A DNA stretch of 54,157 nucleotides from Paramecium tetraurelia (taxonomy: Eukaryota), in contig CT868062.1 in NCBI GenBank assembly GCA_000165425.1, positions 124,001 to 178,157 on the forward strand, in the 5' to 3' direction. Below are positions 1,707 through 52,741 of the stretch, in pieces. The number at the start of each line of letters is the position of its first letter. The stretch's first letter is position 1. Made by a program: the position numbers and the translations under genes. The notes beneath the pieces were generated by a model that saw only the letters and a program-made list of their open reading frames with translations, did no database searches and was not told where the DNA came from.

Positions 1707-2753
1707 TCAAACCCTTTTAGCTTCTTGGAAGTGTTTGGCAAAGGTCTAAGCGACAACCAAAGGAAACACTAGAGTAGCCTCAGAGAACACTTTTACATAT
1801 TCAGCATCCACTCTTAATTTACCCCAAGTGATTCCTTCTGATGGCTTGGCACCAGCATCACTTCCATCATATTCGATGCCAGTATTAATGAATACAGCCA
1901 AATCTGCACCATTTCTCCAGATATTCGCATTCATTATATGGTGTTTAACCACTCCTCCTCCCAATATTACCAATCCTGATTTCTTAGAATACATGGCTTT
2001 CTTGTTTAATTTTACCACATCTTACAGGATATCACAAATCAATCCATCTTGCTTATAATTGAAGTGGAACATCATGTCTCCGATTGCTCCATCTGTTAAA
2101 GCAGGACAATACACTGGGATATCATTCTTAGCACACCAATAATAGATTGATCTCTCATCATTGATTCTTTCCCCAAACCTTTTGATCATAGATGAAGGTG
2201 ACCAAATAAACGATTTCTCTTTTTATTCTTTGTACATTTCTTAAAATACTGGGAGAAGCCAATCTTCCAGTTTTCCATAGTTGGCTGCAGGAACATATAT
2301 ATTACCAATCCTACAAATAGCTTTTAATCTTATTTCTTTATCATTGGCTTACCAATCTCCTTTGTGAAAAGTAGATAGACATTTCATGAGATCCTCCTCT
2401 ATTGCTCCAGCTGTAGTGACTATGGCATCAATCATTTTATGTTAAGCCAAATACCTGATTATTTCTCTATTGCCTGAAGATACCATATTACTAGTGTAAC
2501 CTAAAAATATTGTGCATCTAGTATTGGGATCTTGATTCTCTTCGTTTGGACCCAATCTCCAATGAATCATTTTATTGATTATGTCGATTGCTTTATTTAA
2601 TTGAGTCGCTTATAACCCGAAGTTGGCATAAGAATTCAAGAGAGCATCAAAATCGACTCCTTGATTAAAATCATATCCTTTTATTTCAGGAGTAGTTAAT
2701 GGTTCTGGTTATAGTTTATAGAGAGTCTGATATTGCTCTTCTGCTTGTTTCAT
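1707..2753 (-). CDS. DHPS: Deoxyhypusine synthase
   Basis: Intronless 348 aa. Motifs [67 protein letters not shown]. Confidence 0.97.
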
Positions 2754-2776
2754 TTTAAATAATTAATGGTGAATAA

Positions 2777-3734
2777 ATGAAATTAGATGTTATAATACAT
2801 TTTATTAAGAATTATGGTTCTGATCAGATTATTGTCGTTTTTTTGTTAAACTTTGCAAATGCCTTATGAATTCGTATCATACGAGCAGTCATAAACCTTA
2901 TTATTGTGATCTGTACTTAGTACGCAATTTAACAATGAGCAACACCACTAACAACAATGCAAGGATTACTAAACACCACAAATAGAATAAGTCGAAATAT
3001 TTGCTACATTACACCTATGTTCCACAGGACTGGTAGTTTTCTTGGATTAAACAACAATTATCGCAATTCAATTTGATGCAATGATTCTACTTAAATCATG
3101 ATGTACATCTGAGTATATGGAACACTCACTTTGATATTTGGAGCATCGATTCAGGTTGTTGCAACAAAGACTCTTACACAAAGAGGCTTCTTCAGGAGAC
3201 GAGCATTACATAATAAATTAATTAAAATCATAGAGGTCTCAAAAAACAATAGATAAAAAAGCTAAATTAAGTCTAGATTCCTGAAAGTTCAATTATTTCA
3301 CGGCCTAGTCCTTGAATGATCTTATCAGTCATCTCTTATTACAACTATTAACCTATACTCTTGCTGATCAAGTGATCTAGAACCAACTATAAATTAGCAA
3401 CAACAACTCCATTTAATAATCTCAATGAAATGTTGATTTCAGATAAAAATTCTTAATAACTGAAGGAGATAGCTTAAAAGTACTGATTTCAATATAGAAA
3501 AAATACAGAAGAACAAATTCTTTAAGTAGCAAAATCACGAGAATTAATATTGGAATTTAAATCAATTATATTGAAGAAACTAGTACTTTGTTAGCCCAAT
3601 TGATTCCTAGAATGTTAGATGATACCTAGATTTTGACCCTTCATTAGACCTTTAATATTACATGGAATTAAATTATTCTGTTTTCGGTTAGGATAATTAA
3701 AATAATGAAATTATATAATAAGAGAGTACGTTGA
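2777..3734 (+). pseudogene. Possible degraded gene (fragmented reading frames)
   Basis: Coding-like composition, but every + frame I tried is broken by TGA and I found no short intron that rescues it. No family recognised; limits approximate. Confidence 0.3.
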
Positions 3735-5670: not shown

Positions 5671-6353
5671 TCAGCAACAACTTCCCCCTTAATTTTATGA
5701 CTCTTTCTTCTTTCCTTACTTCAGAGTATTTCTTGTATTGGTTTATTTAACAATTTACTTCAATTCTATGATTTCTTAATATATTTACCATTAGCTAAGT
5801 GATCGAAAATTTCTGGTATTCCCTTACCAGATTTGGCTGAAACCAAAAAGTGTTTTGCATTATATTGATTACACAATTCATCAATTTCTATTAATTGTTA
5901 TTTGACACATAGTACATGATTATTCTACATCTTTCTAAATGTGCATGTCACATTTATTGCCCACAATAACCAATAGCATATTATCATTTTCAGCCATTTA
6001 CTTGAGTTCTTATATCCATTAGCGTCCCTTCTGCAATGTTTCTTTCACTGTGATATCATAGACTATGATTGCAGCATCAGAATTTCTGTAATAGAGTGGA
6101 GCCAGACTGTGATACTTCTCTTGGCCAGCGGTATCCTTTATGTAAATGACTTATACGATACCCATACGGCCAAATCAATTGGTCCTTTTTTAGTCTATAT
6201 TGTTTTCTCCTTGCAATAGCCATCCGAAGTTTCCTGAGTCTATTCAGAGAAGGAATTATCGAAAAACCGTGTTATGATTGATGTCTTACCCACTCTGCCT
6301 TCTCCTAGTGTGACTACTTTGTATACTCGATCTTCAAATTTTTGTTTTTTCAT
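5671..6353 (-). CDS. RAB21: Rab GTPase, Rab21-like
   Basis: [45 protein letters not shown]-terminal GGSCC*; three short GT-AG introns. Subfamily inferred from the GEGxVGKTS P-loop. Confidence 0.88.
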
Positions 6354-6395
6354 AACTTTATTATTTGATATAATAAAATGTGTATTAAAATAAAT

Positions 6396-7037: not shown

Positions 7038-9752
7038 TCAAATCAATAAGTTCAATTCTGTGCCATCTTTTACTCCTAATTCTTTTAGAGTCTTGTTAAC
7101 ATCTAAAACTTTACCATTCCATGCTAAATTTATGGTGTTGCCTTTGATACTATGTTATCTAACAAAGTCCCAGATAATATCACCTACTTTTTAATTAGGC
7201 TTTAATTATCTTTAATGTATTTGATTGTTTATTTTATTGATTTTTATGATAACCTTTATAGTTAGTGGAGAAACAATTAGAAATTCAAATGACACAGGAA
7301 TAGGATCGGAAGGTTTCAAAATAGTATTCCCTTACCTAATAACAATATCACTCTATTATTGAAATTATTATATGATGTACTATCTTAGATCTTCCACAGT
7401 TTTATTCTTCTCGAATTCTATTTCATGTCTCTTGTCTTTAATGGAGATATTTAAAAGACATTTATTTTCTTAATTGTTTGGCTATTCTGGATTATTGATC
7501 TTAGTTTTCTGATTCAATGTCAACTTTCCATTTTATGCAATCTCCTTTAACTTTTATTCATCTTTGGCTGCACTCTGATTACTTAATAATAGTTCTATTT
7601 CGTCAGCACTTCTAAGATTTAATGCTTGTCTTACATCTTTGATTGTCTATTCCTCAAGCAATTAAACTTCTTATTACTAATTCTTTTCAATTACAATTAC
7701 TTAAATCCACTAAACCTACTTTTTCTAAACTTCGTACTCAATTGTGTTTAAATCATAAAACTCTATTTCTTAAAAAGTCTTCTCTTAATTGATTTGTTTG
7801 TTCTAAAAATAGAAATTACAGTTGCAGTTTTCCAATTTTAAATTCTAAATCAGAATTGAAATCTTGGATTTGAAATTTATTTCAAAGTAGGACTCATCTT
7901 TTGTTATTCTATCATATGTTCTTACATTAATATAATCCTTAAGTAAAATTTGGAATTCACAAAAATTCAATGTATTTAATTGATCTTCTTCATTAAAAGA
8001 AGCATTGGGTTGATTTCTTATTTAGAATTCATTTGGTTGATTTTCAGGATAGGAATAATGAGATAAGAATATTTGTTTCAAATCCGATATTTTTTTTGTA
8101 TGGTTCATTTTAAACTCAACTAATCTGTCTTGGTTTATGATATAAATCTTATATGTTTTAGTTTGGGTATCATTTTCGCCATTTTAACTAGGCACAATTT
8201 TATAACACTTCTGACATGCTGCCCATAATTTTTTACACAATAATTGCCCTTATACAGTTTCATTTCCGTAATATAGTTCAAAATCTTATGATTCATCAAT
8301 TTCAAAATATTCTCTCAGTTTGTCGAACAAATCTATGACACATTTGTCTCTTTTTTGATAGATGTCATACAGATCATCCTTGTATTACACTTACAATAGA
8401 ATTTATGTTGGTTGATAAAATATCAAATCATTTTATATTTATAGAGCAGCAAAGGTTTATTCGATATCATCAATAGTTTAATTTTTACAACTTACCCAAA
8501 CATCATTGGTTTCTCTTCCGATCAAATCGTAAATGTATTTGGATAGTAATTCATTAGATAGTGCTTAAATTTCAACTGGGTTTTATTACTCAAGATGTTA
8601 GAACTTAAGTAAAAGCTATACGCCCTCTATTGGTTTATACTCAATAACAGTGTCATTTTGTGTGATTTGCAATTGACGGAAAGTCTCTTTTTTGTCTAAT
8701 TATTTGCCTTAATAAAAGTACTCCATCTATTTATTACAGAAAACTTATTTATCTAATACTGACAATTATTCATCTAAGGAGATGTTACTTTTCTTCCTGA
8801 GTCCTGGGTTTTCTTTATGCTGTAAGCAAATTTAAATCTTCTCCAACTTATTAGTGACAATCAACTGGATGACATCATTATTCGCAATTTAGCATTGATT
8901 GATAGTGTTGTTATTAGACAATTCAATGTCTTCGAAGATCAATTTCACATTGACTTAAGAATAGTTATGAGGGAAGAAGGAGGTTTTGGTTTTATTCATA
9001 AGTGTTTCTATTTTTTCATCTTTGAGTATTGTCATTTATCGAGTGACTTGGCCATAGACAATGGTAATAGTAACTTATTTATTATTTTGAATTTCTACAA
9101 TGCGTAATTTTAATTCTGTGTTGGGGCTCACTTGATAAAAATAGAAGGCATCATCTTTATTCATTTAATCTATTTGAATCTATTCACTATCTACATTTAT
9201 CATTTGGCTAATCATTGTGCATAAAGTCGACACTGAATTGGTAACATCAATTTCGAGTTCATATTATTTTGAATCATAAATGAATTAATGTTTTGAGAAT
9301 ATCTAATATGTTATATTTTCCCAAGGTGATACTTCGATTAAGTTCCTCCCCTAGTTAAGGATTTGGTCGTTCATGGAGAAGCGAACTTCATAATCTTATC
9401 TAAAGTTTAATTTCTTCAATAGAATAGCACCTAATTCATCCATGGTATTGATAATATCGCATTTAAGATTTTGGCTGTCCAATTTCTCATTGTGAACAGT
9501 GACTACAATTTTCTCGATGAATTCTGCTTCAATTTCTGAACAAGGCAAGGTGATTCTCTATTGATCCAGAGTTTTAGTGTTGTCCATTCTTTCTCCTTTA
9601 AAAAAAAAAATTGGATTGGGTGCATTTGTGGGAAATTTCAAATCGGCAATTAATTTATTCATTAACTCAATTGCTGTTTATTCTGGCTTGTATTCTACCT
9701 AGAATTTTAATTTCGTATTTCTTAGTTTAATATCGATTTATCTTACATTCAT
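7038..9752 (-). CDS. Tandem ubiquitin-like (beta-grasp) domain protein 1, about 904 aa
   Basis: 905 codons; frame consistent wherever spot-checked. Repeated UBL cores: IFFFKGERMDNTKTLDQQRI, YFYQGKQLDKKETFRQLQITQNDTVI, FYFQNKQINQEKTFQEIEF, LAWNGKVLDVNKTLKELGVKDGTELNLLI*. Confidence 0.82.
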
Positions 9753-9810
9753 TTAATTTATATATATATATATATATCTAGTATTTTTATTTATTTATTA
9801 ACTGTCAAAA

Positions 9811-10774
9811 ATGCTAGTTTCACAATATCGATAGTTGCCAGCCCCTTCCAAGGAACTCCCTTCCAATTTGAGTTAGGCTCATTTCGATTAGAAGATGAGA
9901 TTCCAATAGTAACATATACAAGCGAGGGTGATTGAGGAAAGACCCAATTTCCAAGAGATGTAAGGAGGATAACCTCCTATGAAGCCTTGGTTAGGAGAAG
10001 ATGTTTATATGGTAGCATTTCTGTTATCAGTGGAAAATGATAGATTGAGAGAGGAGAATGGAAGGATTGGAGAATATATAAATTAGAATGAATTAAGATT
10101 CAAGGGAGTGGATTTAATTGAAGGAGAATTGATACAATTGAGAAATAAAATAGGAGATTATGAGAAAAAGATTGCTTAGCTACAATATGAGAGTGAATAA
10201 TGGAGAGTGAAGTGTGTTAATAGAGAGAAAGAAAGTGAAGATCAACGCTATTAGAAGGAATTACAGAGAAGGATATCTATAGATAGGGAAATAAGGGAGT
10301 TGACAGCCAGATTTATATCAGATAGGAATCAATTGGAAAAGGAGAATAGATAATTGAGAACTGAATTGGATAGTCTGAAACTATCTAAAAGCAGTGTAGA
10401 TGACATAATGAGATAAGCAGATATGGTTTAGAAAGAAAATCACAGATTGAAATAAGAATTAGACAATCTTAGAAAGGGTTTCGATGAATTAGAGTATGTC
10501 CTTAAAACAGCTGCAGATTTGGAGACTGAGAACACTCATCTAAAACAATAGATAGAGAATTTCTAAGTCTAATTCTAGAACCAACAGTAACAGCAAATGC
10601 AACCAATTCAAAGAGTTGTCGTCAATTCAACAAATTTATGTAAGACTAAGATTTAATGACTTAGAAAATTCGCATAACTTAGAATCAGAAATTAAGAGAT
10701 TAAGAGATGAGAATGATAGACTCAAGGTAATTGTAAATTTAGGTCAAGCTACTAGACCTTAACCATTTATGTGA
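9811..10774 (+). CDS. Coiled-coil hypothetical protein (about 312 aa)
   Basis: ATG 9811, heptad-rich (LLSVENDRLREEN...), 25-nt intron near 10640-10664, TGA 10772-10774; spliced length is a multiple of 3. Confidence 0.75.
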
Positions 10775-10808
10775 TACATTATATATTAACTACTTATTAA
10801 CATTTATA

Positions 10809-13650
10809 TCAAATAATAATCTCAAATTTCGCATTTTAAGTAATTTAGAGGTCTGAGAAACACTGATCTAAATTTAATGTTGCACCGTCATAGAACATTT
10901 CTCCATCATTAAACTTATATTTTAATTTAAATTCCTATAAGAATGTCTTAAATTTTTGATTCATCTTCACATATTCTGTGTACTCCTTTTCATCCTAATC
11001 TATCAAAATGATTTTGATAATATTATGATCCAATTTGTATATTAGTTCAATCTCTTTGTTATTATTCTGTAGAGATTTCAAAATGAAATCATTGGGTAAT
11101 GCTTATGTCTAATCTCTTAATTGATAAAGATAATAATTCTCCCTATTCAATTTCTGTTGTTCCTTGAAAAGCTAAACAGTCATTTTCTAATCAATAGTTA
11201 AAGTTCTAATCTTATCATCGACATGCAATATCAATGTACTATCTAACTCCTCAATGAATAATTCTTAAGAATCTGGCACTTCTAATTCTGCCAAGGTGCT
11301 GTCTTAATTGATTTCCCTCTCTAAATAATATACTCTAATCTTGTTTTGATGATTCTGGCTAAGAATCTAACTGATTTTTGTGTCCATTCTGCAAATCTTT
11401 TAATACTACAATTCCTTTGTTTTATAGCTCATAAATTTAATCGTCACTAATAAAATATAGTGCAAGTGGTCGTTATTGTAAATATTTTCATCTCGGAATG
11501 AGTTTTAAATGTTTATCTCGCGATTTCCCTCCTAAATTACACATTTCCCTTTGATATGGTTCTTAATTGCATAACCAATTATGTCTTCTGGGTAGAAGTC
11601 AATTTCCACCACGTTATGAGTGTTATTTAAGTCAAACAATTAAACTTTACTAGTAGATTCTATAGTAATAACTGTGTTTGGGTCTAAATTTAGATCGATT
11701 AACTTAATAGTTTGATCCATTAGGTTATTGGCAATATAACATCTTGATTTTCTTTTTGCTATGTCTCCCAGCATTCCTCCCAATGTCTTAAACTTATTAA
11801 ATTTACCCTCATACACAGTTTATAAGTCTTAGATTTTATATTTCACATTTATATTCTTCTTTGAAATCCTGAGCACCTTACCAATGTATTCTGACAATTC
11901 ATCATCATCATTTATGTCATCATCTTTATTTTCATTTTTGTTGTCGACCTAAATACAAACCTCGTCTTAGAATAAATCTGTGTATAAAGACTTCATTTGT
12001 GACACTCTGTCTGTCTCATAGAATCTGGATTCTGATTGTTCTATATTGTTATCCAACAATAATTCGATCTTAAAGTGAAACACCTTACTTACTGTAAACA
12101 TTACATTATTTTTAAAATTCTTGATATATTCATTCTCATGTAAATCTTACCCATTTAGTAGTATTTTGCATTCATCTGTAATCTTAAATTGGTTTATCAC
12201 TTTCTCTTTTAGATCCTTCACTGTGTCCAAAAAATGTATACACATTTCTTTTATTTATCTCTGATTCCTAGTCCAAATCATCAATTATACTATCATGTCT
12301 GACAAACAATATTGAATGATATCCCCATCCTAGATTCCTTCTGACTTATATGTGCCATTCAAATCTATCAATTAACCATTCTTATACGCTTTTATTCTCA
12401 AATTATCATAATTAACATTCGTCATTATTTCCTCATTGATGATGTCCTCCGATTTCACCTATTTTGTAAATGAGTTGCCTTCATCATCTTGGAAGGTGAC
12501 ATTAAAGGTAATTGAAAATTCTACACCATTTCATACTAAATCAAATACTCATTTTCTTTAAATTTGATACTATTAAAAATTAGTCTCTCAGTAATTTCGA
12601 CTATATTACCATTAACATAGAATTAGAATACCTTTCCTTTAAAAGGTTGTAATTCAAAAATAGTTGAAAAATAATCTAAATTGGATACCTGTTTTGAAAA
12701 ATGAACTTACTCTTATACTTTACTTACAAATTTTATGATCATAGTCTTTTCTAGTATTTTATTTGTTATCTTAAATTCAGCATTATCTGCTAAATCTAAG
12801 CTTCCAATTTTTGTGTTGTTTTCTAACATTTTGTTAAGATAATAAACTTATAAAATTTGATTTTAATGTATTTGTTCAACTTACTTGTAGTATTTAATGA
12901 ACTCCTCTATAGTCATATTAACCGAAACATTAAATCTATATGTTTTGCTCTAATATGAAATTTAAATCTTTTGCAGGCTCTTTATTTTCATTTTCAATTC
13001 AGCATTCTAATAGATTTTGTAGAAAAAATATGTCTTTCGATCTTCCAATTATTGACCTCTGAAATATAATTCTATTTCCTCTTCAATACCAAGCTTTTGT
13101 CTAATCTTCTACTTTATTTTATCCAAATATGAAAAAGCATCAATCTAAAACAATTATAGTTTGTCTTAATATCTAATATAAAAAATCGCTTAAACTAGAT
13201 AAAATAGTTCTTATTAATAAAAGAATATTTGGCAGAGGAATAAATTTCTGTCTAAAACTTGATTTTTCTTAAGAATTTTAATTGGGTACTCTTCAATTTT
13301 TATTGTATTCGCAATTTTTTTTTCAATTTCTATTAATTACTAACATGCATCCACTTTATCCAATATAAGCTTATATTTCTCTCATCCTTATCTATGTGTT
13401 ATATTGTGAAGCTTTCTATTTCTTCTGAAAAATTGATATATATCACATTATTTTTGAGAGAATTAAGGTCATAATGTATATCTCTGACATTATTTTCATC
13501 AGCAATATACAATTTAGCTTTCGCAGGAAATCCTTTTTGTTAATTTAAGAATTGAACAACGTCGCTGATTTTTGCTGAGGAAGATTTGGGTTCATATTCC
13601 AATTTGAATGTGTTGTTATTCACAATGATCTCGTATTTTTTCATTGACAT
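10809..13650 (-). pseudogene. Tandem ubiquitin-like domain protein 2 with two frameshifts (about 946 codons if corrected)
   Basis: Fully translated. UBL cores LYFRGQQLEDRKTYFFYKI, AYKNGQLIDLNGTYKSEGIQDGDII, DTVKDLKEKV..ILLNGQDL, MFYDGATLNLDQCFSDLQI. Frame changes near 13380 and 12525 with no fitting intron; may be assembly error. Confidence 0.72.
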
Positions 13651-14410
13651 GTGACATTTATATATTTATATATAATAATACAGTTTAAATTTCTAATTCA
13701 TAAATCTATTCCACAAGCATAGTGCATTTAAAATACTATTATATTCTGATTTACAAGTAATTTTTAAGCAATTTATACTCCTTCATCCTTTCATTCATGT
13801 GCTATTATAAATATAACAAGATTAGGTTAAAATGCTTATTGTTGTAATAATTTTATATTCGATTAAAATAAAATATTAAATTTTTGAGATGTATTTGTAT
13901 TTTGTTTAAGTATTCTAGAAATTCATTCTTAAACTTAAATTGAATACAAATGAATCTTAAAATGTATACAGTTCCATTTTCAAATTTATGACTTCACTTC
14001 TAGCTCTAGATACCGCTGAAACATATGAAACATATTGAATGAATGAAATTTTCTCAATCTGAGGAAATGGTATGTTGGTTCAATTTTAATTCTTAGTTTT
14101 TCATTCAGATATGCTTACAAATTAAGATTACTTCTCTGATTTATAATTTGCTCATCAAATATAGATACTGTGTTTGAATCCTTATTTTAGTTTAATTTAG
14201 AAACCCTCCGAAACTTTCAAACAACAATTATATAATAAATTTACAAACCAAAGAGTTTATTAATCTATAATTAGCTAACTTATATCTTATAAATATATTT
14301 TCATACATGTTTACTTCATTAACTACCATATATATCGCTTAACCAAATAATACCATACAGTTCGATCTTTATAAAATAATAATAAATTTATTATATGCTT
14401 TAAAATTAAT

Positions 14411-14713
14411 ATGTCTGAAAGCGAAATTTCATTTGATTTCAATGATGATGAACCTGTCGAGGAAGTCAAGTCATCTCACATGTAAACTAAACCGGAGAGA
14501 TAAATGATGTCATTTTCTAAAAGTGATAAAAAGGACAAAAAAGAAAAGTTAAAGCAATTACAAATCACAATGCAAGGATAGAATTCAAGCAAATAGTAAA
14601 TGACAAAGGATTTGTTATTCCTATTAAAGTTTGAATAACATATGTTGAGTTCCATTAATAGTTTGCATTAGAGAATTATGAGATCTTTAGAAACGGAGGC
14701 TCCTGGAAATTGA
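14411..14713 (+). CDS. Small hypothetical protein (100 aa)
   Basis: MSESEISFDFNDDEPVEEV...LETEAPGN*; clean intronless ORF in table 6. Confidence 0.7.
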
Positions 14714-14889
14714 ACTCATTTATTAATATTATTATATATATAGTTTGATGTATAATTTAAACTTCAAATTAACATGATTATAAACTAATTACTAAAAATA
14801 ATTAAATTTCTAAACTCTAAAATGTTAAATAGAAATTTAAATTCAAATTTATAAATACAATTATAATGTTATATATCGAGTAATTGAAA

Positions 14890-16303
14890 TCATTTTCTTT
14901 TTAAAGGAGGCAACTCTAACTTTTGCCTTACAATTTATCTAGATTTAGCTGAATTGTCATTCAAAATCTCGTCAATTGTTTTGGGTCTCACAGAGGCCTT
15001 TTGTTAAAAGCACTTTTTGAATGAAGCTATTGTATACTTCTAATCTTCTAGTGTATTCAAATTGTCAAAAGAAGTCTTTGGCTTTGATTTTGAATTTTAC
15101 TTTGATTTCTAATCTTTCGGACTTTTGGATCTCATATTTTTTATTTTTTGAATATTTGATACCATTTTTTATTTTTATGATTTAGGATTGGGTAAAGATT
15201 AATACTGCTACAAAAGTTTTTTCTTATCAGTCAATTTTAATAATATCTCATCATTTGGATATGGTTGTTAAATTGGACAATTTTTCATTAGATATTGTAA
15301 AAAGAGCAGTAACTTAAATGACTATTGTAATGGTTAAATTAATTACATTTCGAATTTACTGATCCTTAATAAACTATGATATTTGCTCATTATAAGTTAA
15401 TGGAATTTTATCTGAGAAATTTCGAGTAATCCAAGGATGAATCAATGCCTAACCGACACTATACCTTTCAATGGGTTCAATTGTAGTCAATTTTTAGATA
15501 AGATCCTTTGCTAATGGGCTCATGTGATCTGATAATTACCATATTGGATTCATGATTTTCTTGATCACTTAATCTCTAGTGTCGTTTTTATTATAAAATG
15601 GATGCTAACCAGAATTCAATAACATGTACATAATAACTCCGCAACTCCATGAGTCAACTTGTTTACTATACTATCTATTATTTAGAATTGAGTACAAATT
15701 TCTCTTTAAATTACTCAGGAGCCATATAAATGACAGTTCCACATTTTTTATTAAGCAAACTATAGAACATGCCTTCTGATGCAAACTTGAAACTTAAGCC
15801 AAAATCAGCAATCTTGACTGTCCTTATGTCAGTTGTGGCAAACATGATGTTTTCTGGTTTTAAGTCTCTATGAATGATTCTTTTCTCATGTAAATAGTGA
15901 ACTGCTAATAGAATTCCTTTCATAATAATCGCAAAGTCCTCATCAGTATATTCTTAATTCATACGCTGTGCCAATGTTCCTCCTTTCATGAGTTCCATAA
16001 TTAAAAAAAATTAATTCTTATTTTCTGTTATCTTCATAAGAAATCTTAAGTACTCTTTTGCATTGGACGATATGAGGATGATTTAACTACTAATAAATAT
16101 CTGATTCAATTTATGCATCTTTGAAAAGTGTTTTAGAAACAACCTTAATAATTACAAGATTATTTAACCTTGACAGCACACTCTGTATTATCTGTTAAGT
16201 CTGTTGCCTTATACACTTTTCCAAAGCTTCCCTCTCCGATCTTTGCTATTTCTTTTATTTAATACATTTCTTGTAGAAAATCTACATCCTCACCTTGGAG
16301 CAT
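14890..16303 (-). CDS. Ser/Thr protein kinase, CAMK group
   Basis: IGEGSFGKVY, CAVK, HRDLKPEN, DFG, CGTVIYMAPE; several short introns; ends LELPPLKRK*. Confidence 0.92.
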
Positions 16304-16393
16304 TAATTTTATAATTAACAATATTATTATAATAGTGTCATAATTCTAATAATATTAATTTTAGATCATAAAAGGCAGCGTTTAAATTCAAAT

Positions 16394-18769
16394 TCAATTT
16401 TATAAATCTTGGAAAGTCTTGACTTCGGATGCCTCATGGTAAGAAAGCTATTCCTCAAATATAATGTTCTCATTAGGATTATAGTTTATGCTATTAATCG
16501 TAGAAGTCAAGTCCAAAACTTAGTTCTTATATAAAAGTCTATTAATCTTGACACCTAATTTGTTAATGATGCTTTTAAGGCTCTCATCCAATTCTGCTAT
16601 CATCTTTTGTACTGTTCCACTACGAGCATTTTAAAAATTCATTAATAATTAAGAGTGATACCTTATTATGGAATTATTTTCAATAGGCAAATCTTTTATG
16701 TTTTTATGCATTTATATGGTATAATTATAAAAAGTAAAGTTAGTCCCAATTATCTAATTTTTTTTTAAAGCAAACTCAAAAGTATTTTCAAGTTCTGCTT
16801 AAATTATTTATTTTAAACCATTCTAATTCACAAGTTACAAGGTTAAGGTAGTTATAAATTAAACCCTCAAGTCCGAACGAGTTTGATTAATTATATTGTT
16901 AATTTAATAGATAGTCTCATTTTCATCGACCTTTTTCTAACCTATAAAGAGATCGAGTACTTAATTTCTTGGTGATTGATATCTGTATTTGATTATCTGG
17001 CAAAGAGCTTTTGCTGTTTAGTTCTATTTCATATTAATATGGGCGCAACAACTAACATGATTGACATATACACACAATTCTATTATATCTTCTTGAGATT
17101 ACATGTCATTTTGGACATCAAATTCAAATTTAAAATTATTGTTTCCCTTTAAGAATTCTATTAATGACAAATTTTTAACTTAAGGTTGTATATTCTGTAG
17201 TTATAATTGTTGATTAAGATTATTCGATGCTTTGAATTGTTGTTCTATTGAAGAAATGGGTAGGTTTTAATCTACAATTACTTTTAAAGCTTGACCTTAA
17301 ACCTAGGCTTGAAATATTACAAAATCAGTGAAATAATTTAAGATGGAATTTGAAATAATATTTAATTTATCAAATCTCCATTTAAGATCAAGTAATTAAT
17401 TGCCAAAATATACCTTATAATATTTTGTATCCTTTAAAGTTTCCGTCTGAACAATACCTTAAAAGCCATCCATAATAGTGCAAGTAGAGGAAATTTTAAT
17501 TTATTTAGACGATTTTGTGTATTTATTTTGAAAAGTGATTGTGATTTAAGTCATGTCCTCACTTGGCAGATGTAAATCTTAACGTATATCTTATAATTAA
17601 TCTTAGTTATAATATAAATCTTATTGTTAATCCTGTTTTATTATCTAATAATTAATAATGCATTCTGATTACAAATCTAGTTATTTTAAATTGAATTTTT
17701 TATCTTTTATTTATTCTTCTAGAAAATATTAAATGGTTTCAGTGTATTTGTCATGATTTATTAGTATATCCAGATCAGCTAAGGTAGAATTCACAGCCAC
17801 TCTCTCGTATTGCTTCATAGAGTATTGATTTTGCAATAAGATATTAATCTTATTATCAGAAGGTTCTTTGATGAGAGTTAATTGACTATATATAGGAATA
17901 CATTCTTGATTTAGAGTATTACTTATATCAAGAAGGTTTTTCTTAAGTTTGTATTCTAATGTTAATGGAATAGTATTTTCTATTTTAAACTGTTGTCTGA
18001 CCTTGCGTATTAAATCAAATACTTCCATACTCCCTGGTATAGTAATCAATTTATTGTCTTGATTTTAAAATGCTACATTATAAATGAATTCCTATCGAAA
18101 CTCAACATCCCATGGTTAGTCTAGTGGTATGTTTAAGTTTATGTATAATAAATCAGGGTTTATATTTAGTTATCCAAGCTTAAAAGTAATGAGTTCATCG
18201 TCAATGTTTTACTAAATTTTGAATTAATTAATGTATTTAGCAATTGGTTAAAAGACATCAATTGTAATTTCCATAATCTATTATTTGTACTATATTTGCT
18301 ATTGCTTTTTGATTTGAATAAAAACTGTAAGATTTTAAAATACTCCTTACTTCCCCCAACATTCTGACCCAAATTAGGTCCCATCCTCAGAGTTAGTTAT
18401 CTATATCTCACATTATTTGATCTTGATTAAGTTTGATATATGGACTCTAAACTTGTTGGCTGATTCATATACATCTGTAGCAAAATTGATGGTCCCTAAA
18501 AATTCATGAACACATTAAATTGTTATTTTTTTTGATAAAATTACATCTATTTACGAGTATAAATTTATCTCAAGATCCTGAATTGTTTTATTAATATCAA
18601 CTTAAATATTATCAATCTTCAATATTGCTTGTAAACTATCTCTAACCTATTTAGCAATATTCAATCTGTTAAATAATAATTGCAGAATATTTAACCCTGT
18701 TTAATATGGATAAATTTCAATAGATTCCATTATGCTGAGTTGTTAAACCACTACATTTACTTTAATCAT
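16394..18769 (-). CDS. Tandem ubiquitin-like domain protein 3, about 791 aa
   Basis: 792 codons, in frame with listed ORF 17729..18049. UBL-like units MIKVNVVV...VDINKTIQDLEINLYSQI, VFDLIRKVRQQFKI...LDISNTLNQECI, LLYKNQVLDLTSTINSINY. Confidence 0.78.
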
Positions 18770-19673: not shown

Positions 19674-20317
19674 TCAGCAATCGGAATCAAGTTCATAATT
19701 GATATCATTCGATCTTTAACTTTCACAAGGTTGATCTTCTGGAAGAGAATTCATATGGCTATACTCACTAAATGATAGTTAAATTCAAATTACCTTCCCA
19801 TAACTTAATCCCATCTATAACGAAGGTATTTGTAGTAGCGATTCTTAACCATGCTGACACTCTTGCCTGGAAATGACTTTGATATTTTATAAAACTTTGG
19901 TCCTATCTTAAGAACAAGCTCCAAAATTCTCTTATCTTCAACATTAGAGAAAGGATGGGCATTAGATTTTGGTTTCTCCATGACAAGACACACCTTCAAT
20001 CCATTTTCTTTAATATGGATAATAGGTTTAGGGGCAGGGCGCTTCTTTTTCTTGTGATAAGTGTATTGAATTCTTTTTGGAGGACGTCTTCTTTGAATTG
20101 GTAATTTTATTTTTTGAATTTCTTGCTGTTGTGGAGTCGATAAATTCGAATCTAACGAAAGACTTAATATATATTATCTACCTTAATCTACACAAGTGCT
20201 TAACCCTTAATCCGAAAAAATAAGAGTATTTGGAGAACTGACAAGACCAAATAGTTCAAGCTCTTCTTCAAACAATTCTAGTTTTTATTCTTCGTATGTA
20301 TCCACAAAGTTTATCAT
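19674..20317 (-). CDS. Myb/SANT-like DNA-binding protein
   Basis: PFSNVEDKRILELVLKIGPKFYKISKSFPGKSVSMVKNRYYKYLR is a single Myb repeat; two short introns; 3' end tentative. Confidence 0.85.
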
Positions 20318-21443
20318 TTGATTTTTTTATGATTATTAATGATTTTTCATTTTAATTTTAATTGCAATTTATAGAGTTGAATATCAGTTTTAATGACGAA
20401 AGGTATTTATAATTGGAAAAATCAATTAACTTAAATTAATTCAATTTACGTGATTATAAGATCTAAATTCTTAAGAATTCCGGAACATTTTAATTGTTTT
20501 TTTTCATTTTCAAAATCTTTTACTTTTTCCACTTTTTCCAGGTTCAGAAAAAGACAAATAGACAATTTTCATCCTTTTTTGGTTGATTTATGTAAATCTA
20601 TGAATCTCAACTGCTTTTCCGAAAATTGTAAAAACACCTTCCTATCCCTTTAAATTCAAAGTATAATCAAAAATTGATATCAATTCGATAATTTAATTAA
20701 TAAAATCCAAATAACTCATCGCAGAATATGCAAATTTCTATTAATAACCAAATTCAAAAAAACTGTATATTTATGATATCACAAAAGTAAGTTTATTTAG
20801 AAATTTATTTTACTTTTGGTTCAAATTGCATGGCATTCGTTTTTTTTATAATTTACTGAGAGTTCATAAATGAGAAAACTACAATAGATCCTTTAATCAA
20901 AAATCTCTTCGAAACTCAGTGTTTGTTTCACATATGTTGCTTCTATACCAGCTGCCTTAAATTTTAGGAATAAGTTATTTAAACCTATTTTAATAACTAA
21001 ATAGATTGCAAAAACACGTATTATATCTGATTATAATATATAAAATTGACAAATTTAAATTAAAACAAGATTCAGATTTTTCACTTCAGTAGGGTATCAA
21101 ATTTTAAAGTGATAGCTTAATAGCCATTTTTTTAGCAAAACTATGTTCATGATATTACAAATTCTTTATTATCAATCATTATTAACATCATATTTGTTGA
21201 GACTTTAATTATAAATTAAATTGAAACTTTTTCGAAATTCTTAAATATAGATATCTGTTTCCTTGAAGTATTAAGCCTTTAAATAGGAGCAATATCTTAA
21301 TTAAAATGCTAAGATCTTGATATAAGGATCATTAAATGAATATAAGGAAATCAATTATTTTCTTATATTGGCTTTAAAAGTTGTAAGAAATTAGAATTAA
21401 TATAAATCTTGATATATTTAATAAATGAATATAGAAGTTGAAT

Positions 21444-21730
21444 TCAAAACTTTCCTTATTAATATTAATATAGATCTGCCATATCTTCATCTTCGTCCCC
21501 CTCTTCTAAATTTGAATCCTCTGATATTTCATTTTTCTAGAAATTTACTGCGCAAAAATTGATATTTTTTATTTTAGGACTCTCAGAAGATTTCATAAGT
21601 GGCTGTGAATTCATTTAAGGTTGCTATTAAGGTGGTTGTAAATCCATTTAAGGTTGCTATTAAGATGGTTATTATTTGTTATCATCTCCTTTAAATAATA
21701 ATGCTGCCTTTTCAAAAAAACTTGGTTAAA

Positions 21731-21781
<51 letters not shown>

Positions 21782-23557
21782 GTTATTATTATTAATATTA
21801 TTATTATTAATATTATTATTCTGTTAGGACGGGCTGAGATGATAATTTTTCCTTTCTAACTTCTCTAATTTCTTATCTACACATAGTTGTTTATAACTTT
21901 GTATTATGCGTTTGAAAACTCCTATTTTTCTCTTTGTTAGCAGAATTGCTATTAATGTTAACATTTGTTTGAATGTAACCATCCCATTACTAATTATATG
22001 ACTATGCCTGTTAATAATTTCCTTGTTTAGCTATCTATGCAGTCTTCTATGTCATTCTTTTATGAATGACATCTACTTCAGCCTCTTCTTCTGCCTCCAT
22101 CGCATTTTCTGTTGTTGAGACCTATTTAGTAACTACTCTCATAAGTTTATCACCATTTAGATTAGTGTAATTAACCTTAAGTTAAAATGGAACAGTCTTT
22201 AAATCCTTGATATCAATTTATTCTTTTTGTAACTCCTAATCATTTTTTAATTAATATTCAAATGTTTGAGTAGTAGCAATAGTAGCATTACCTATGTCTC
22301 TTTTAAGTTTATGATTCAGATTAGGATCATCTTCTCCTCTGAACTTTAAAGCTCGATGCAAACTCACAAATAGCTGAACTTAAGTTCCTACTAATTCATC
22401 TTTTAAAATATTGGCAAAATCTTTTTCAATATCTTCGGGCTTGACTCTAGTAATGGTTCCATTAGTTTTTTCAGACAAGGCTCCCAGAATGTCCACTTTG
22501 CATCCTTCCCCTTTTATCGTTACAACTGATATCACTACTCCACATTATGTAGCAAAGTCACCCAAATTTTCATAAAATTGCTTATTTGCCTCATTTTCCA
22601 AAGATCCCAATCCCAAAATTGGCTAATCCATCTGTGCAGATAATAATCATGGATCCAGGTTTACCTATTTTCGCTAATTGCAAAGCTGAAATCAAAGCAG
22701 GTCCTAAGGCAGTCTATCCTTTTTCTTAGAGTTGCTCAAATTTCTTCAAGAGACTATCGGCTTGAGCTTTAACTGGAGATTTCATGAGTTATTTTGCAGT
22801 TCCATCTAAGAGAGCCTCTATTTCATCTTATTTAAAGAGTCTATCTCCAGCAATTGTAATTGGGACTTCAGAACCATCCCCATATACAACAACTTCATTA
22901 TTGAATGTGACTAATCCAACTATTTTATTGGGGTTCTTCTTCTTTAATTCTCCTATTTGTTATTCAATAGCTGCCATAACACATTATTTCCTGGAAACAT
23001 GAGTAACATGTTTGGTATTAAATTATGGCCATATCTAATGTTCGTCTCCAGGTTCAATGAATTATTTAAGCATTTCATACTCTTCAGCAGATATTCCATG
23101 TTTAAAATTGACCTTTCCCTTTATTTCAACAGTGCTGGACATTGAACCACTGGTATCAATACAAAATACTATAGAGTTATCAGCATCTTCTATTTGCATT
23201 TATTATTCCTAAGATGATTAAATCAGATAAACAGTATCTTCACTTTTAGGTATTTCTTCCTTTTCAATTTAGATGTAATTCTTATGATTACAAAACTCAC
23301 AAATCCAAAGATGCTTTCCAAATTATTGATTTTAAACATCATCTTCAATTTTTGAGTATATATTTAGAACAGTTTCACATTGTTAGCACAAAATAGGATC
23401 TCCTTGATGTATTTTAACAACGTTTTCTTTCAAGCAATCAAACTTAACTTGGAAGATATTGGTATCGACATCATCTAAAATTTAGGGTAAATAAGTTACA
23501 TTAATTGTCAAAGGTCCTTCTTTTCAGATAGGCCTTTTTGGAACACATTGCCATCAT
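21444..23557 (-). CDS. Sec23/Sec24-type Zn finger + vWA domain protein with poly-Gln tail; one +1 frameshift
   Basis: GDPILCQQCETVL...WICEFCNHKN, IVFCIDTSGSM, TALGPALISA, IICTDGLAN. One 25-nt intron near the 5' end; extra base in the 22615-22618 homopolymer. Confidence 0.8.
21731..21820 (-). repeat. (TAA)n tract encoding poly-Gln
   Basis: Imperfect (TTA)n on +, read in frame as TAA codons inside the vWA gene. Confidence 0.85.
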
Positions 23558-23659: not shown

Positions 23660-24083
23660 ATGTAAAAGCAGAAGACTCAAACATATAAAGATTCCCACAC
23701 GTTGGAAGATAGAAAGAAAAGAGTGTAGGAGCAACTAGCAAAGTATCCTGAAATGATTCCCATAATCGTGGAAAAGATTCCAGGTTGTAAATTACCTTAA
23801 TTGCAAAAAGTGAAGTAACTTTATTTAAATGATTGAATATAGGTTTTTGGTGAACTCTAGTTTCTCCTTTAATGAATTCAAAAATACAATCAAAAAGAAA
23901 TTGAACTTGGATGAGAAAACCTCGACCCTATTTATGTATTGCGGAAAAAATTTAATGAATGAACGTACTTCTTATAATCAATAATTAGATGATAAATTAA
24001 AAAACATTTACGATTAGTACAAAGATCCAGAGGATGGATTCCTCTATTTGCATTATGCAGATGCAGAAACCTTTGGTTTTTGA
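23660..24083 (+). CDS. ATG8: Autophagy ubiquitin-like protein ATG8 family
   Basis: KYPEMIPIIVEK, KFLV, IYDQYKDPEDGFLYLHYADAETFGF*; two short introns. Confidence 0.95.
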
Positions 24084-51917: not shown

Positions 51918-52741
51918 NNNNNNNNNNNNNNNNNNNNNNNNNNNNNNNNNNNNNNNNNNNNNNNNNNNNNNNNNNNNNNNNNNNNNNNNNNNNNNNNNNN
52001 NNNNNNNNNNNNNNNNNNNNNNNNNNNNNNNNNNNNNNNNNNNNNNNNNNNNNNNNNNNNNNNNNNNNNNNNNNNNNNNNNNNNNNNNNNNNNNNNNNNN
52101 NNNNNNNNNNNNNNNNNNNNNNNNNNNNNNNNNNNNNNNNNNNNNNNNNNNNNNNNNNNNNNNNNNNNNNNNNNNNNNNNNNNNNNNNNNNNNNNNNNNN
52201 NNNNNNNNNNNNNNNNNNNNNNNNNNNNNNNNNNNNNNNNNNNNNNNNNNNNNNNNNNNNNNNNNNNNNNNNNNNNNNNNNNNNNNNNNNNNNNNNNNNN
52301 NNNNNNNNNNNNNNNNNNNNNNNNNNNNNNNNNNNNNNNNNNNNNNNNNNNNNNNNNNNNNNNNNNNNNNNNNNNNNNNNNNNNNNNNNNNNNNNNNNNN
52401 NNNNNNNNNNNNNNNNNNNNNNNNNNNNNNNNNNNNNNNNNNNNNNNNNNNNNNNNNNNNNNNNNNNNNNNNNNNNNNNNNNNNNNNNNNNNNNNNNNNN
52501 NNNNNNNNNNNNNNNNNNNNNNNNNNNNNNNNNNNNNNNNNNNNNNNNNNNNNNNNNNNNNNNNNNNNNNNNNNNNNNNNNNNNNNNNNNNNNNNNNNNN
52601 NNNNNNNNNNNNNNNNNNNNNNNNNNNNNNNNNNNNNNNNNNNNNNNNNNNNNNNNNNNNNNNNNNNNNNNNNNNNNNNNNNNNNNNNNNNNNNNNNNNN
52701 NNNNNNNNNNNNNNNNNNNNNNNNNNNNNNNNNNNNNNNNN
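51918..52741. other. Assembly gap (824 N)
   Basis: Run of N. Confidence 1.

What the first reader, a model, noticed from the sequence alone, without database searches (positions are those of the whole stretch)
7038..18769. Cluster of three genes built almost entirely of tandem, divergent ubiquitin-like domains
Seen: three minus-strand, apparently intronless genes (7038-9752, 10809-13650, 16394-18769; about 800-950 codons) within 12 kb, each a string of 70-80 aa units carrying the beta-grasp signature (hydrophobic)-[FY]-x-G-x-x-[LI]-D-x-x-x-T-[FL]-x-x-x-x-I. I estimate 10-13 units per gene from length. Units differ strongly from each other, none of the proteins ends in Gly-Gly, and I saw no catalytic domain. 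Established: polyubiquitin genes have near-identical repeats ending LRGG and ISG15/FAT10 have only two UBLs, so these are neither. Inference: a locally expanded, fast-evolving family of non-conjugatable poly-UBL scaffolds or decoys, possibly in proteostasis or defence. Best candidate here for an uncharacterised system, though I cannot confirm it is undescribed.
Basis: partly seen in the sequence, partly recalled or inferred. Interest (0 to 1): 0.78.

Follow-up and report, generated by a model that had tools for sequence, protein, structure and literature searches.

The report
Paramecium ubiquitin-fold bead-string proteins
Three neighbouring Paramecium genes each encode a chain of 10-13 ubiquitin-shaped modules that keep ubiquitin's fold but have lost its attachment tail and its usual binding surface; they belong to an old, fast-changing, uncharacterised gene family, and similar ubiquitin-only chains turn up separately in a diatom and a gut fungus.

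Summary
Confirmed, with corrections. The three minus-strand genes encode arrays of 12, 13 and 10 ubiquitin-like units (median 17-20% identity to ubiquitin and about 20% to each other), with no Gly-Gly end and no other domain. Gene 2 is not one ORF in the window: it has two frameshifts, one shown by reads to be a reference error; orthologues are intact (938-946 aa). The genes are transcribed at low level, syntenic across P. aurelia species, homologous in register, and part of at least 11 such genes in this genome, present in all six duplicated sister regions examined, so the family is old. Core positions are conserved; the Ile44 patch, Lys48/63 and the tail are not; dN/dS is 0.39. Similar ubiquitin-only arrays (74 of 144 new top hits) occur elsewhere, with diatom and fungal units clustering apart. 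Best reading: non-conjugatable, non-cleavable multivalent binding platform; decoy role is the main rival. Function is inferred, not shown. No description found in 10 literature searches.

The parts
7038..9752 (-). Gene 1: 904 aa, 12 ubiquitin-like units
   Evidence: Single ORF; Pfam Rad60-SLD E 5e-17 with 5 stretches, ubiquitin E 8e-15 with 4; orthologues 83/68/50%; sense RNA depth about 3
9516..9752 (-). Gene 1 unit 1, modelled as a beta-grasp fold
   Evidence: pLDDT 61-81 over residues 1-80; Z 11.9, rmsd 1.5 over 72 residues to a ubiquitin chain
7041..7265 (-). Gene 1 unit 12, modelled as a beta-grasp fold; ends without Gly-Gly
   Evidence: Pfam Rad60-SLD E 3e-8; Z 12.6, rmsd 1.5 over 73 residues to TINCR UBL, Z 12.4 to Rad60 SLD2
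10809..13650 (-). Gene 2: about 945 aa, 13 units; in three frames in the window
   Evidence: Pieces P0005, P0004, P0003 align end to end with 938-946 aa orthologues; Pfam hits
12506..12510 (.). Frameshift in gene 2 that is an error of the reference
   Evidence: X13 contig (depth 28.4 of 28.4) and 1 X21 RNA read lack one base at each of the two places
13376..13384 (.). Second frameshift in gene 2 (unit 2); reference error or real lesion, unresolved
   Evidence: Frame change against orthologues; no fitting intron among GT..AG candidates of 20-35 nt; no listed read or contig row
16394..18769 (-). Gene 3: 791 aa, 10 units (11th unit lost here and in P. octaurelia)
   Evidence: Single ORF; no Pfam hit itself but orthologues hit TUG-UBL1 at E 5e-7 to 7e-6; held-out profile test; ohnologue on C509 at 39-41%
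17558..17572 (-). Conserved linker motif H-x-P-S-E/D between units 5 and 6 of gene 3
   Evidence: Pro and Ser invariant in 6 of 6 orthologues; present in the C509 ohnologue
16424..16438 (-). Second copy of the linker motif, kept although the following unit was lost
   Evidence: His, Glu, Ser invariant in 6 of 6; related motif before the last unit in C509, C29, C52 paralogues; background 8 matches in 89,466 aa

Best explanation
These are members of an old Paramecium family of soluble proteins built only of ubiquitin-fold units strung head to tail at the spacing of linear polyubiquitin. Shown or computed: the fold-forming core of the units is kept, while the C-terminal LRGG, Lys48/Lys63 and the Leu8-Ile44-His68-Val70 patch are lost; unit order has been kept through whole-gene and whole-genome duplications; N-terminal units and a short H-x-P-S-E linker motif are the best-kept parts; C-terminal units are gained and lost. 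Following from established ubiquitin biochemistry (my knowledge): without LRGG they cannot be activated by E1 or cut into monomers by ordinary deubiquitinases, and without the Ile44 patch canonical ubiquitin receptors should not read them. Inferred: each protein works uncleaved as a non-covalent, multivalent binding platform, a type II (integral) UBL adaptor multiplied 10-13 times, in which a few N-terminal units and the linker motif hold lineage-specific partners and the other units act as stable spacers or low-constraint extra docking sites.
For: Core columns 0.70 conserved among orthologues versus 0.53 for other columns (30 of 36 units, p 3e-8); Ile44-patch columns 0.50, no different from background (p 0.59); Ile44 kept in 9 of 160 unit sequences, His68 in 1, Lys48 in 29, Lys63 in 11. 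Median unit-to-unit spacing equals polyubiquitin's 12 residues over 32 junctions, without Gly-Gly. In-register profile alignments g1-g2 94.5%, g1-g3 95.4%, g2-g3 97.0%; unit-order shuffles reach the real score in 3, 0 and 0 of 40. dN/dS 0.39 against the ohnologue, i.e. purifying selection. Gene 3 units 1-5 0.55-0.63 conserved versus 0.38-0.51 for units 6-11; shorter paralogues keep the N-terminal part. Sense transcription of all three, 1.3-2.7 reads/kb/million in 2 RNA runs of one study. No transmembrane-strength segment (max 19-residue hydropathy 1.86).
Against: No partner, localisation or phenotype is known. No surface patch is conserved across units, which a scaffold for conserved host proteins would be expected to show. 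Only units 1, 11 and 12 of gene 1 were modelled with confidence (mean pLDDT 39.5); the gene 3 model is uninformative (39.4), so the fold of the middle units rests on profiles; 5 of 36 unit positions failed the held-out test. Unit borders were drawn by hand. Ohnologues of genes 1 and 2 are lost from the sister region C509, so dosage is not strongly kept. The g1-g2 register test is weak (3 of 40).
Confidence: 0.45

Rival explanations
1. Decoy or bait library in a biological conflict: a non-cleavable look-alike of linear polyubiquitin whose varied surfaces trap or sense ubiquitin-directed effectors (deubiquitinases, ligases) of bacterial symbionts, pathogens or giant viruses.
For: Gene 3 has the highest dN of 14 ohnologue pairs in the region (0.50 versus 0.02-0.32, median 0.056); surfaces unconstrained; the C74 paralogue shows accordion-like unit amplification, 6 copies at 67-97% identity here and 10 copies at 96-100% in P. 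sonneborni; best structural matches are linear di-ubiquitin and ISG15; the architecture recurs in unrelated microbial eukaryotes and multi-ubiquitin proteins exist in protist giant viruses.
Against: dN/dS is below 1 and no site-level test was possible; low expression suits neither a sponge nor, by my recall of Paramecium work, needs conflict to explain a fast rate; no signalling or effector domain is attached; fixed unit order over long times; five paralogue ids are absent from the one supplementary table of a Caedibacter infection study (that table is a GO-selected subset, so weak).
Confidence: 0.25
2. Fold-only structural rod or ruler: 10-13 stable beads giving a spacer of set length, as Ig or spectrin repeats do, with neighbours diverged to avoid misfolding.
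For: Core-only conservation; short junctions at most positions; unit-unit identity about 20%.
Against: No anchoring domain at either end; unit number varies from about 5 to about 20 among paralogues; low expression for a structural protein.
Confidence: 0.12
3. Proteostasis shuttle or built-in degron in the manner of Rad23/Dsk2, FAT10, TUG or UBX proteins, docking on the proteasome or Cdc48/p97.
For: Pfam matches to ubiquitin, TUG-UBL1, UBX-like families; Rad23 UBL is the top, non-significant, sequence hit among solved structures (E 0.08).
Against: Ile44 patch lost; no UBA or other cargo-binding domain; rate far above that of neighbours.
Confidence: 0.08
4. Functionless relic of decayed polyubiquitin genes.
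For: Spacing like polyubiquitin; a partly decayed three-unit polyubiquitin exists in this genome (L013); frameshifts in gene 2; ohnologue losses.
Against: Open frames of 790-950 codons kept in five species and six sister regions; dN/dS 0.39; core conservation; one frameshift is a reference error; transcribed.
Confidence: 0.04
5. Polyprotein precursor cut by a dedicated protease into separate small UBL proteins or modifiers.
For: Head-to-tail layout as in polyubiquitin; a conserved linker motif could be a cut site.
Against: No Gly-Gly at junctions or ends; junction residues are bulky and not conserved; the motif occurs at only 1-3 junctions and not in genes 1 and 2.
Confidence: 0.04

Closest known systems
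Polyubiquitin precursors (UBB/UBC/UBI4 type)
   Same: Head-to-tail ubiquitin-fold units, similar number and spacing; structural match to linear di-ubiquitin.
   Different: Units about 20% identical to each other and to ubiquitin, no LRGG, order fixed; true polyubiquitin loci exist elsewhere in this genome.
ISG15, FAT10, OASL di-UBL tail
   Same: Tandem diverged UBLs; matched by fold search.
   Different: Two units only; ISG15 and FAT10 end in Gly-Gly and are conjugated (recalled).
Rad60/Esc2/NIP45 SUMO-like-domain proteins
   Same: Non-conjugated tandem UBLs used as adaptors (recalled); best Pfam family; Z 12.4 to Rad60 SLD2.
   Different: Two SLDs after a long unstructured N-terminus (recalled); here 10-13 units fill the whole chain; Ubc9 binding untested.
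Type II UBL-domain proteins with several UBLs (USP7 five-UBL tail, TUG/ASPSCR1, talin F0-F1, Rad23/Dsk2)
   Same: Integral, non-conjugatable UBL domains as interaction modules (PMC1949818, passages on adaptor roles).
   Different: All carry catalytic, UBA, UBX or FERM parts (recalled); these have none.
Bacterial multi-ubiquitin (polyUbl / Ubl3) proteins
   Same: Tandem diverged beta-grasp domains; 2-3 units (PMC1779556, passages); form Ca2+-dependent filaments (10.1101/2024.11.21.623966, abstract).
   Different: At most three units, encoded beside E1/E2/JAB genes; no such neighbours here and no homology shown.
Unnamed long UBL-only arrays of other eukaryotes (diatom Cylindrotheca closterium CAJ1957214.1, gut fungus Pecoramyces ruminatium, metagenome proteins)
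   Same: 9-22 ubiquitin-family stretches, no well-supported other domain in the 30 scanned; 73 of 74 arrays do not end in Gly-Gly.
   Different: Closer to ubiquitin (median mostly 27-69%); units cluster by lineage, so probably separate origins; also uncharacterised in the labels seen.

Membership tests
Ubiquitin-like (beta-grasp) superfamily | beta-beta-alpha-beta-beta-beta fold with ubiquitin's core pattern | tested here: met
   Gene 1 units 1 and 12 modelled, Z about 12, rmsd 1.5; core columns hydrophobic in 80-99% of 160 unit sequences; held-out profile 31 of 36
Ubiquitin-like (beta-grasp) superfamily | Fold of the middle units and of gene 3 by structure prediction | tested here: inconclusive
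   pLDDT under 50 for residues 79-762 of gene 1 and most of the gene 3 model
Polyubiquitin precursor | Near-identical ubiquitin repeats | tested here: not met
   Identity to ubiquitin median 17-20%, max 34%; unit-unit max 36%
Polyubiquitin precursor | LRGG at every junction | tested here: not met
   No GG in genes 1 and 3 or in 4 gene-2 orthologues; one internal GG in the window's gene 2, not at a junction
Type I modifiers (ISG15, FAT10, SUMO, NEDD8) | C-terminal Gly-Gly, free or exposed by processing | tested here: not met
   C-termini listed
UBL-UBA proteasome shuttles (Rad23/Dsk2) | Ile44-type patch plus UBA domain | tested here: not met
   Patch not conserved; no UBA in Pfam scans
Rad60/Esc2/NIP45 | Two C-terminal SUMO-like domains after a long N-terminal region | tested here: not met
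   10-13 units over the whole length
Rad60/Esc2/NIP45 | Non-covalent Ubc9 binding by the last SLD | not tested
   No complex prediction was run
Type II (integral) UBL-domain proteins, broad sense | UBL domains inside a larger, non-conjugated chain | tested here: met
   non-conjugation is inferred from sequence, not assayed
Bacterial Ubl3/polyUbl | Up to three beta-grasp domains in an operon with E1/E2/JAB genes | tested here: not met
   Neighbours are Rab, coiled-coil, kinase, Myb, Sec23-like genes
Bacterial Ubl3/polyUbl | Ca2+-dependent filament assembly | not testable with these tools
   Needs purified protein

The most novel reading that the evidence does not exclude
An undescribed, repeatedly evolved class of eukaryotic 'pseudo-polyubiquitin' arrays: microbial eukaryotes turn ubiquitin repeats into uncleavable 10-20-unit libraries of ubiquitin look-alikes that bait or sense the ubiquitin-manipulating effectors of symbionts, pathogens and giant viruses, with the Paramecium family as the oldest and most diverged example and an expandable unit number as its adaptive dial.
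Probability: 0.25. Interest if true: 0.82.

Novelty: new variant of a known kind. Interest (0 to 1): 0.58.

Why it matters
Known multi-UBL proteins have 2-5 units, an enzyme or adaptor domain, or identical cleavable repeats. A conserved, selected protein class made only of 10-20 diverged, uncleavable ubiquitin folds, arising more than once in eukaryotes, would be a new use of the fold outside the ubiquitin code. Paramecium allows RNAi, tagging and infection with natural symbionts, so the scaffold and decoy readings can be told apart directly. The work also corrects two database gene models (gene 2 cut to 538 aa, gene 3 started 13 codons late).

Tried and rejected
Pairwise BLASTP among the three genes: not significant (best E 0.005); first profile comparison with only close orthologues was weak and became clear only after adding paralogues. 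Literal motif scan: 1 match. Idea that junctions lost ubiquitin's four-residue tail: rejected, median spacing is unchanged. Intron explanation of gene 2's breaks: no fitting candidate. AlphaFold2 of full gene 1 and of gene 3 units 1-5: low confidence; the second model was not searched. PDB sequence search: nothing under E 0.08. ESM Atlas for gene 1: ubiquitin/Rad60-SLD clusters at 0.84-0.90, a lead only; gene 3 could not be run there. TUG-UBL1 family search of the genome: 0 candidates. Unit tree is poorly resolved (7 of 137 inner branches starred) and the Paramecium grouping may be a long-branch or composition effect. Literature: 10 searches showed no paper on this family in the listings; five paralogue ids gave 0 papers. 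Earlier scan notes: 4 look-ups, none on this locus or family. No complex prediction was sent: no candidate partner had enough prior support.
Full report
Setting. The window reads under genetic code 6 and lies on contig C79 of a 72.1-Mb, 697-contig genome. Paralogues from other contigs match proteins labelled Paramecium tetraurelia, all 'uncharacterized' or 'ubiquitin-like domain-containing' (5 of 6 looked up were found).

The observation. Gene 1 (7038-9752) and gene 3 (16394-18769) are single open frames. Gene 2 (10809-13650) lies in three frames. Its orthologues in P. octaurelia, primaurelia and sonneborni are single proteins of 938-946 aa that align across both breaks. One DNA run (X13, depth 28.4) and one RNA read lack a base at 12506 and at 12510, so that break is a reference error; the other DNA run gave no row there, and the break near 13380 is not covered by a listed record. 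The database models of gene 2 (538 aa) and gene 3 (778 aa, starting at Met46) are therefore truncated. All three genes are transcribed on the sense strand at 1.3-2.7 reads/kb/million in two oligo-dT runs of one study; coverage of the 5' half of gene 2 is thin.

Are the units ubiquitin-like? I drew 12, 13 and 10 units by hand. Pfam finds ubiquitin or Rad60-SLD at E<0.01 in 8 of 35 units and none in gene 3, though three gene-3 orthologues hit TUG-UBL1 over its cut-off. A profile trained on two genes, without ubiquitin, scores ubiquitin at 20-32 bits and places 31 of 36 held-out unit positions (median over orthologues; gene 2 tested on orthologues) above the 99th percentile of 484-704 decoys; g1u6, g2u2, g2u8, g3u2 and g3u7 fail. 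AlphaFold2 models only units 1, 11 and 12 of gene 1 with confidence; these match linear di-ubiquitin and ISG15 (E about 1e-8) and single UBLs at Z 11.9-12.6, rmsd 1.5-1.8. The gene 3 model is low-confidence and shows only strand-strand-helix starts at the expected places.

What is kept and what is lost. Across 160 unit sequences the positions of ubiquitin's hydrophobic core are hydrophobic in 80-99% of units and better conserved among orthologues than other positions (0.70 versus 0.53; 30 of 36 units; p 3e-8), while the Arg42/Ile44/Lys48/His68/Val70 positions sit at background (0.50; p 0.59). Ile44 survives in 9 of 160, His68 in 1, Lys63 in 11. No chain ends in Gly-Gly. Median junction spacing equals that of polyubiquitin (12 residues from Leu67 to the next Ile3, 32 junctions), with five longer linkers. 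In the two long linkers of gene 3 a motif H-x-P-S-E/D is nearly invariant, is kept even where the following unit was lost, and recurs before the last unit of three paralogue groups; background is 8 matches in 89,466 aa. I cannot explain it.

Family and age. Orthologues were found only in the P. aurelia complex: 83/71/73% in octaurelia, 68/60/54% in pentaurelia or primaurelia, 50/46/46% in sonneborni; shared longest-contig lengths imply the cluster is syntenic (inference). These searches need shared 5-residue words, so absence elsewhere is not shown. In 344 kb of targeted genome stretches I found 11 such genes: 3 in the window, 1 on the recent-duplication sister C509, 2 on C29, 1 on C52, 2 on C33, 1 on C57, and 1 unlinked on C74; 0 of 4,286 reversed decoys scored. 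Neighbour genes show C79/C509 and C29/C52 as sister pairs and tie C33/C57 in more distantly, so arrays sat at this locus before at least two genome duplications (the number and order of Paramecium duplications is recalled). With paralogues added, the three genes align in register from the N-terminus (94.5, 95.4, 97.0%); shuffling unit order reaches the real score in 3, 0 and 0 of 40 trials. Gene 3 and its ohnologue are 41% identical, dN 0.50, dS 1.27, ratio 0.39; 13 neighbouring pieces have dN 0.02-0.32 (median 0.056) and ratios 0.03-0.53, the two highest dN probably inflated by non-coding codons. Genes 1 and 2 have no remnant on C509. The C74 gene shows how arrays grow: 6 recent copies of one unit here and 10 near-identical copies in its P. 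sonneborni orthologue, 56% alike between species.

Beyond Paramecium. A profile of 31 window units against 1.84 billion representatives gave 1,351 hits at E<0.001; only the best 150 were seen. Of 144 new proteins, 74 are arrays of 8 or more diverged units, 31 contain near-canonical ubiquitin, 39 are shorter arrays; 1 of the 74 ends in Gly-Gly. Thirty scanned by Pfam are dominated by ubiquitin-clan families. Of 24 looked up, named organisms are the diatom Cylindrotheca closterium, the gut fungus Pecoramyces ruminatium and Paramecium species; the rest are unnamed or labelled only 'ubiquitin C'. In a unit tree the diatom units form one clade (99), most fungal units another, and 67 of 69 Paramecium units fall on one side, suggesting separate origins, though the tree is poorly resolved. 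Multi-ubiquitin proteins of giant viruses appear in the viral fold search.

How it most likely works. Shown: fold-type conservation, loss of tail, lysines and patch, fixed order, purifying selection, low expression. From established ubiquitin biochemistry (my knowledge): no E1 activation, no ordinary deubiquitinase processing, no reading by Ile44-binding receptors. Inferred: an uncleaved multivalent binding platform whose best-kept parts, the N-terminal units and the linker motif, hold lineage-specific partners (0.45). Rivals: decoy or bait against ubiquitin-directed effectors (0.25), fold-only spacer (0.12), proteasome or p97 shuttle (0.08), relic (0.04), processed precursor (0.04). That these are ubiquitin-fold arrays forming one family I hold at about 0.93.

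Comparison with what is known. It fails the defining tests of polyubiquitin, type I modifiers, UBL-UBA shuttles, Rad60-type proteins and bacterial Ubl3, and fits only the broad class of integral UBL-domain proteins. Papers: PMC1949818 and PMC1779556, passages only (no mention of Paramecium or ciliates in the first; polyUbl of 2-3 units in the second); 10.1101/2024.11.21.623966, abstract and outline; PMC5814942, term search of text and its one supplementary file (five paralogue ids absent, window genes' own ids unknown to me). Ten searches of the open-access library showed no description in their listings; subscription journals, most supplements and ParameciumDB expression tables were not visible and may bear on novelty and function.

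Verdict. New variant of a known kind; interest 0.58.

Noticed in passing
G000:C74:134922-140417 (L063-L067, L074-L075): Unlinked 1,808-aa array of about 20 UBL units with six recent 88-aa repeats and Gln-rich linkers; the P. sonneborni orthologue has ten near-identical 78-aa repeats.
   Followed up: partly
L013 (G000:C99:5676-8888): Three-unit polyubiquitin-like gene: unit 1 canonical, units 2 and 3 diverged and without Gly-Gly; a possible early stage of array formation.
   Followed up: partly
window 17558-17572 and 16424-16438: Unexplained conserved linker motif H-x-P-S-E/D in gene 3 and paralogues.
   Followed up: partly
window about 23814-24080 (+): ATG8-family gene piece (Pfam E 7e-9), another ubiquitin-fold gene 5 kb from the cluster; ohnologue 91% identical; no link shown.
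   Followed up: no
window 9811-10659 (+) and about 14400-14715 (+): Genes between the arrays: a conserved coiled-coil gene (95% to its ohnologue) and a small gene; both are well covered in RNA run X21 and nearly absent in X23, i.e. condition-specific, unlike the arrays.
   Followed up: no
window 1710-2876, 5760-6395, about 14890-16387, 19751-20350, 21444-23523: Deoxyhypusine synthase, Rab-type GTPase, protein kinase, Myb and Sec23/vWA-like genes: ordinary neighbours with no ubiquitin-pathway link.
   Followed up: no
G000:C509:47041-53415: The sister region carries two genes absent from the window at the places where array genes 1-2 are absent from C509: reciprocal gene loss after duplication.
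   Followed up: no
window 51918-52741: Assembly gap of 824 N.
   Followed up: no
P0020-P0033, P0167 and related hits: A large group of 1,000-2,500-aa UBL-only arrays resembling the named diatom protein; apparently uncharacterised and worth a study of its own.
   Followed up: partly
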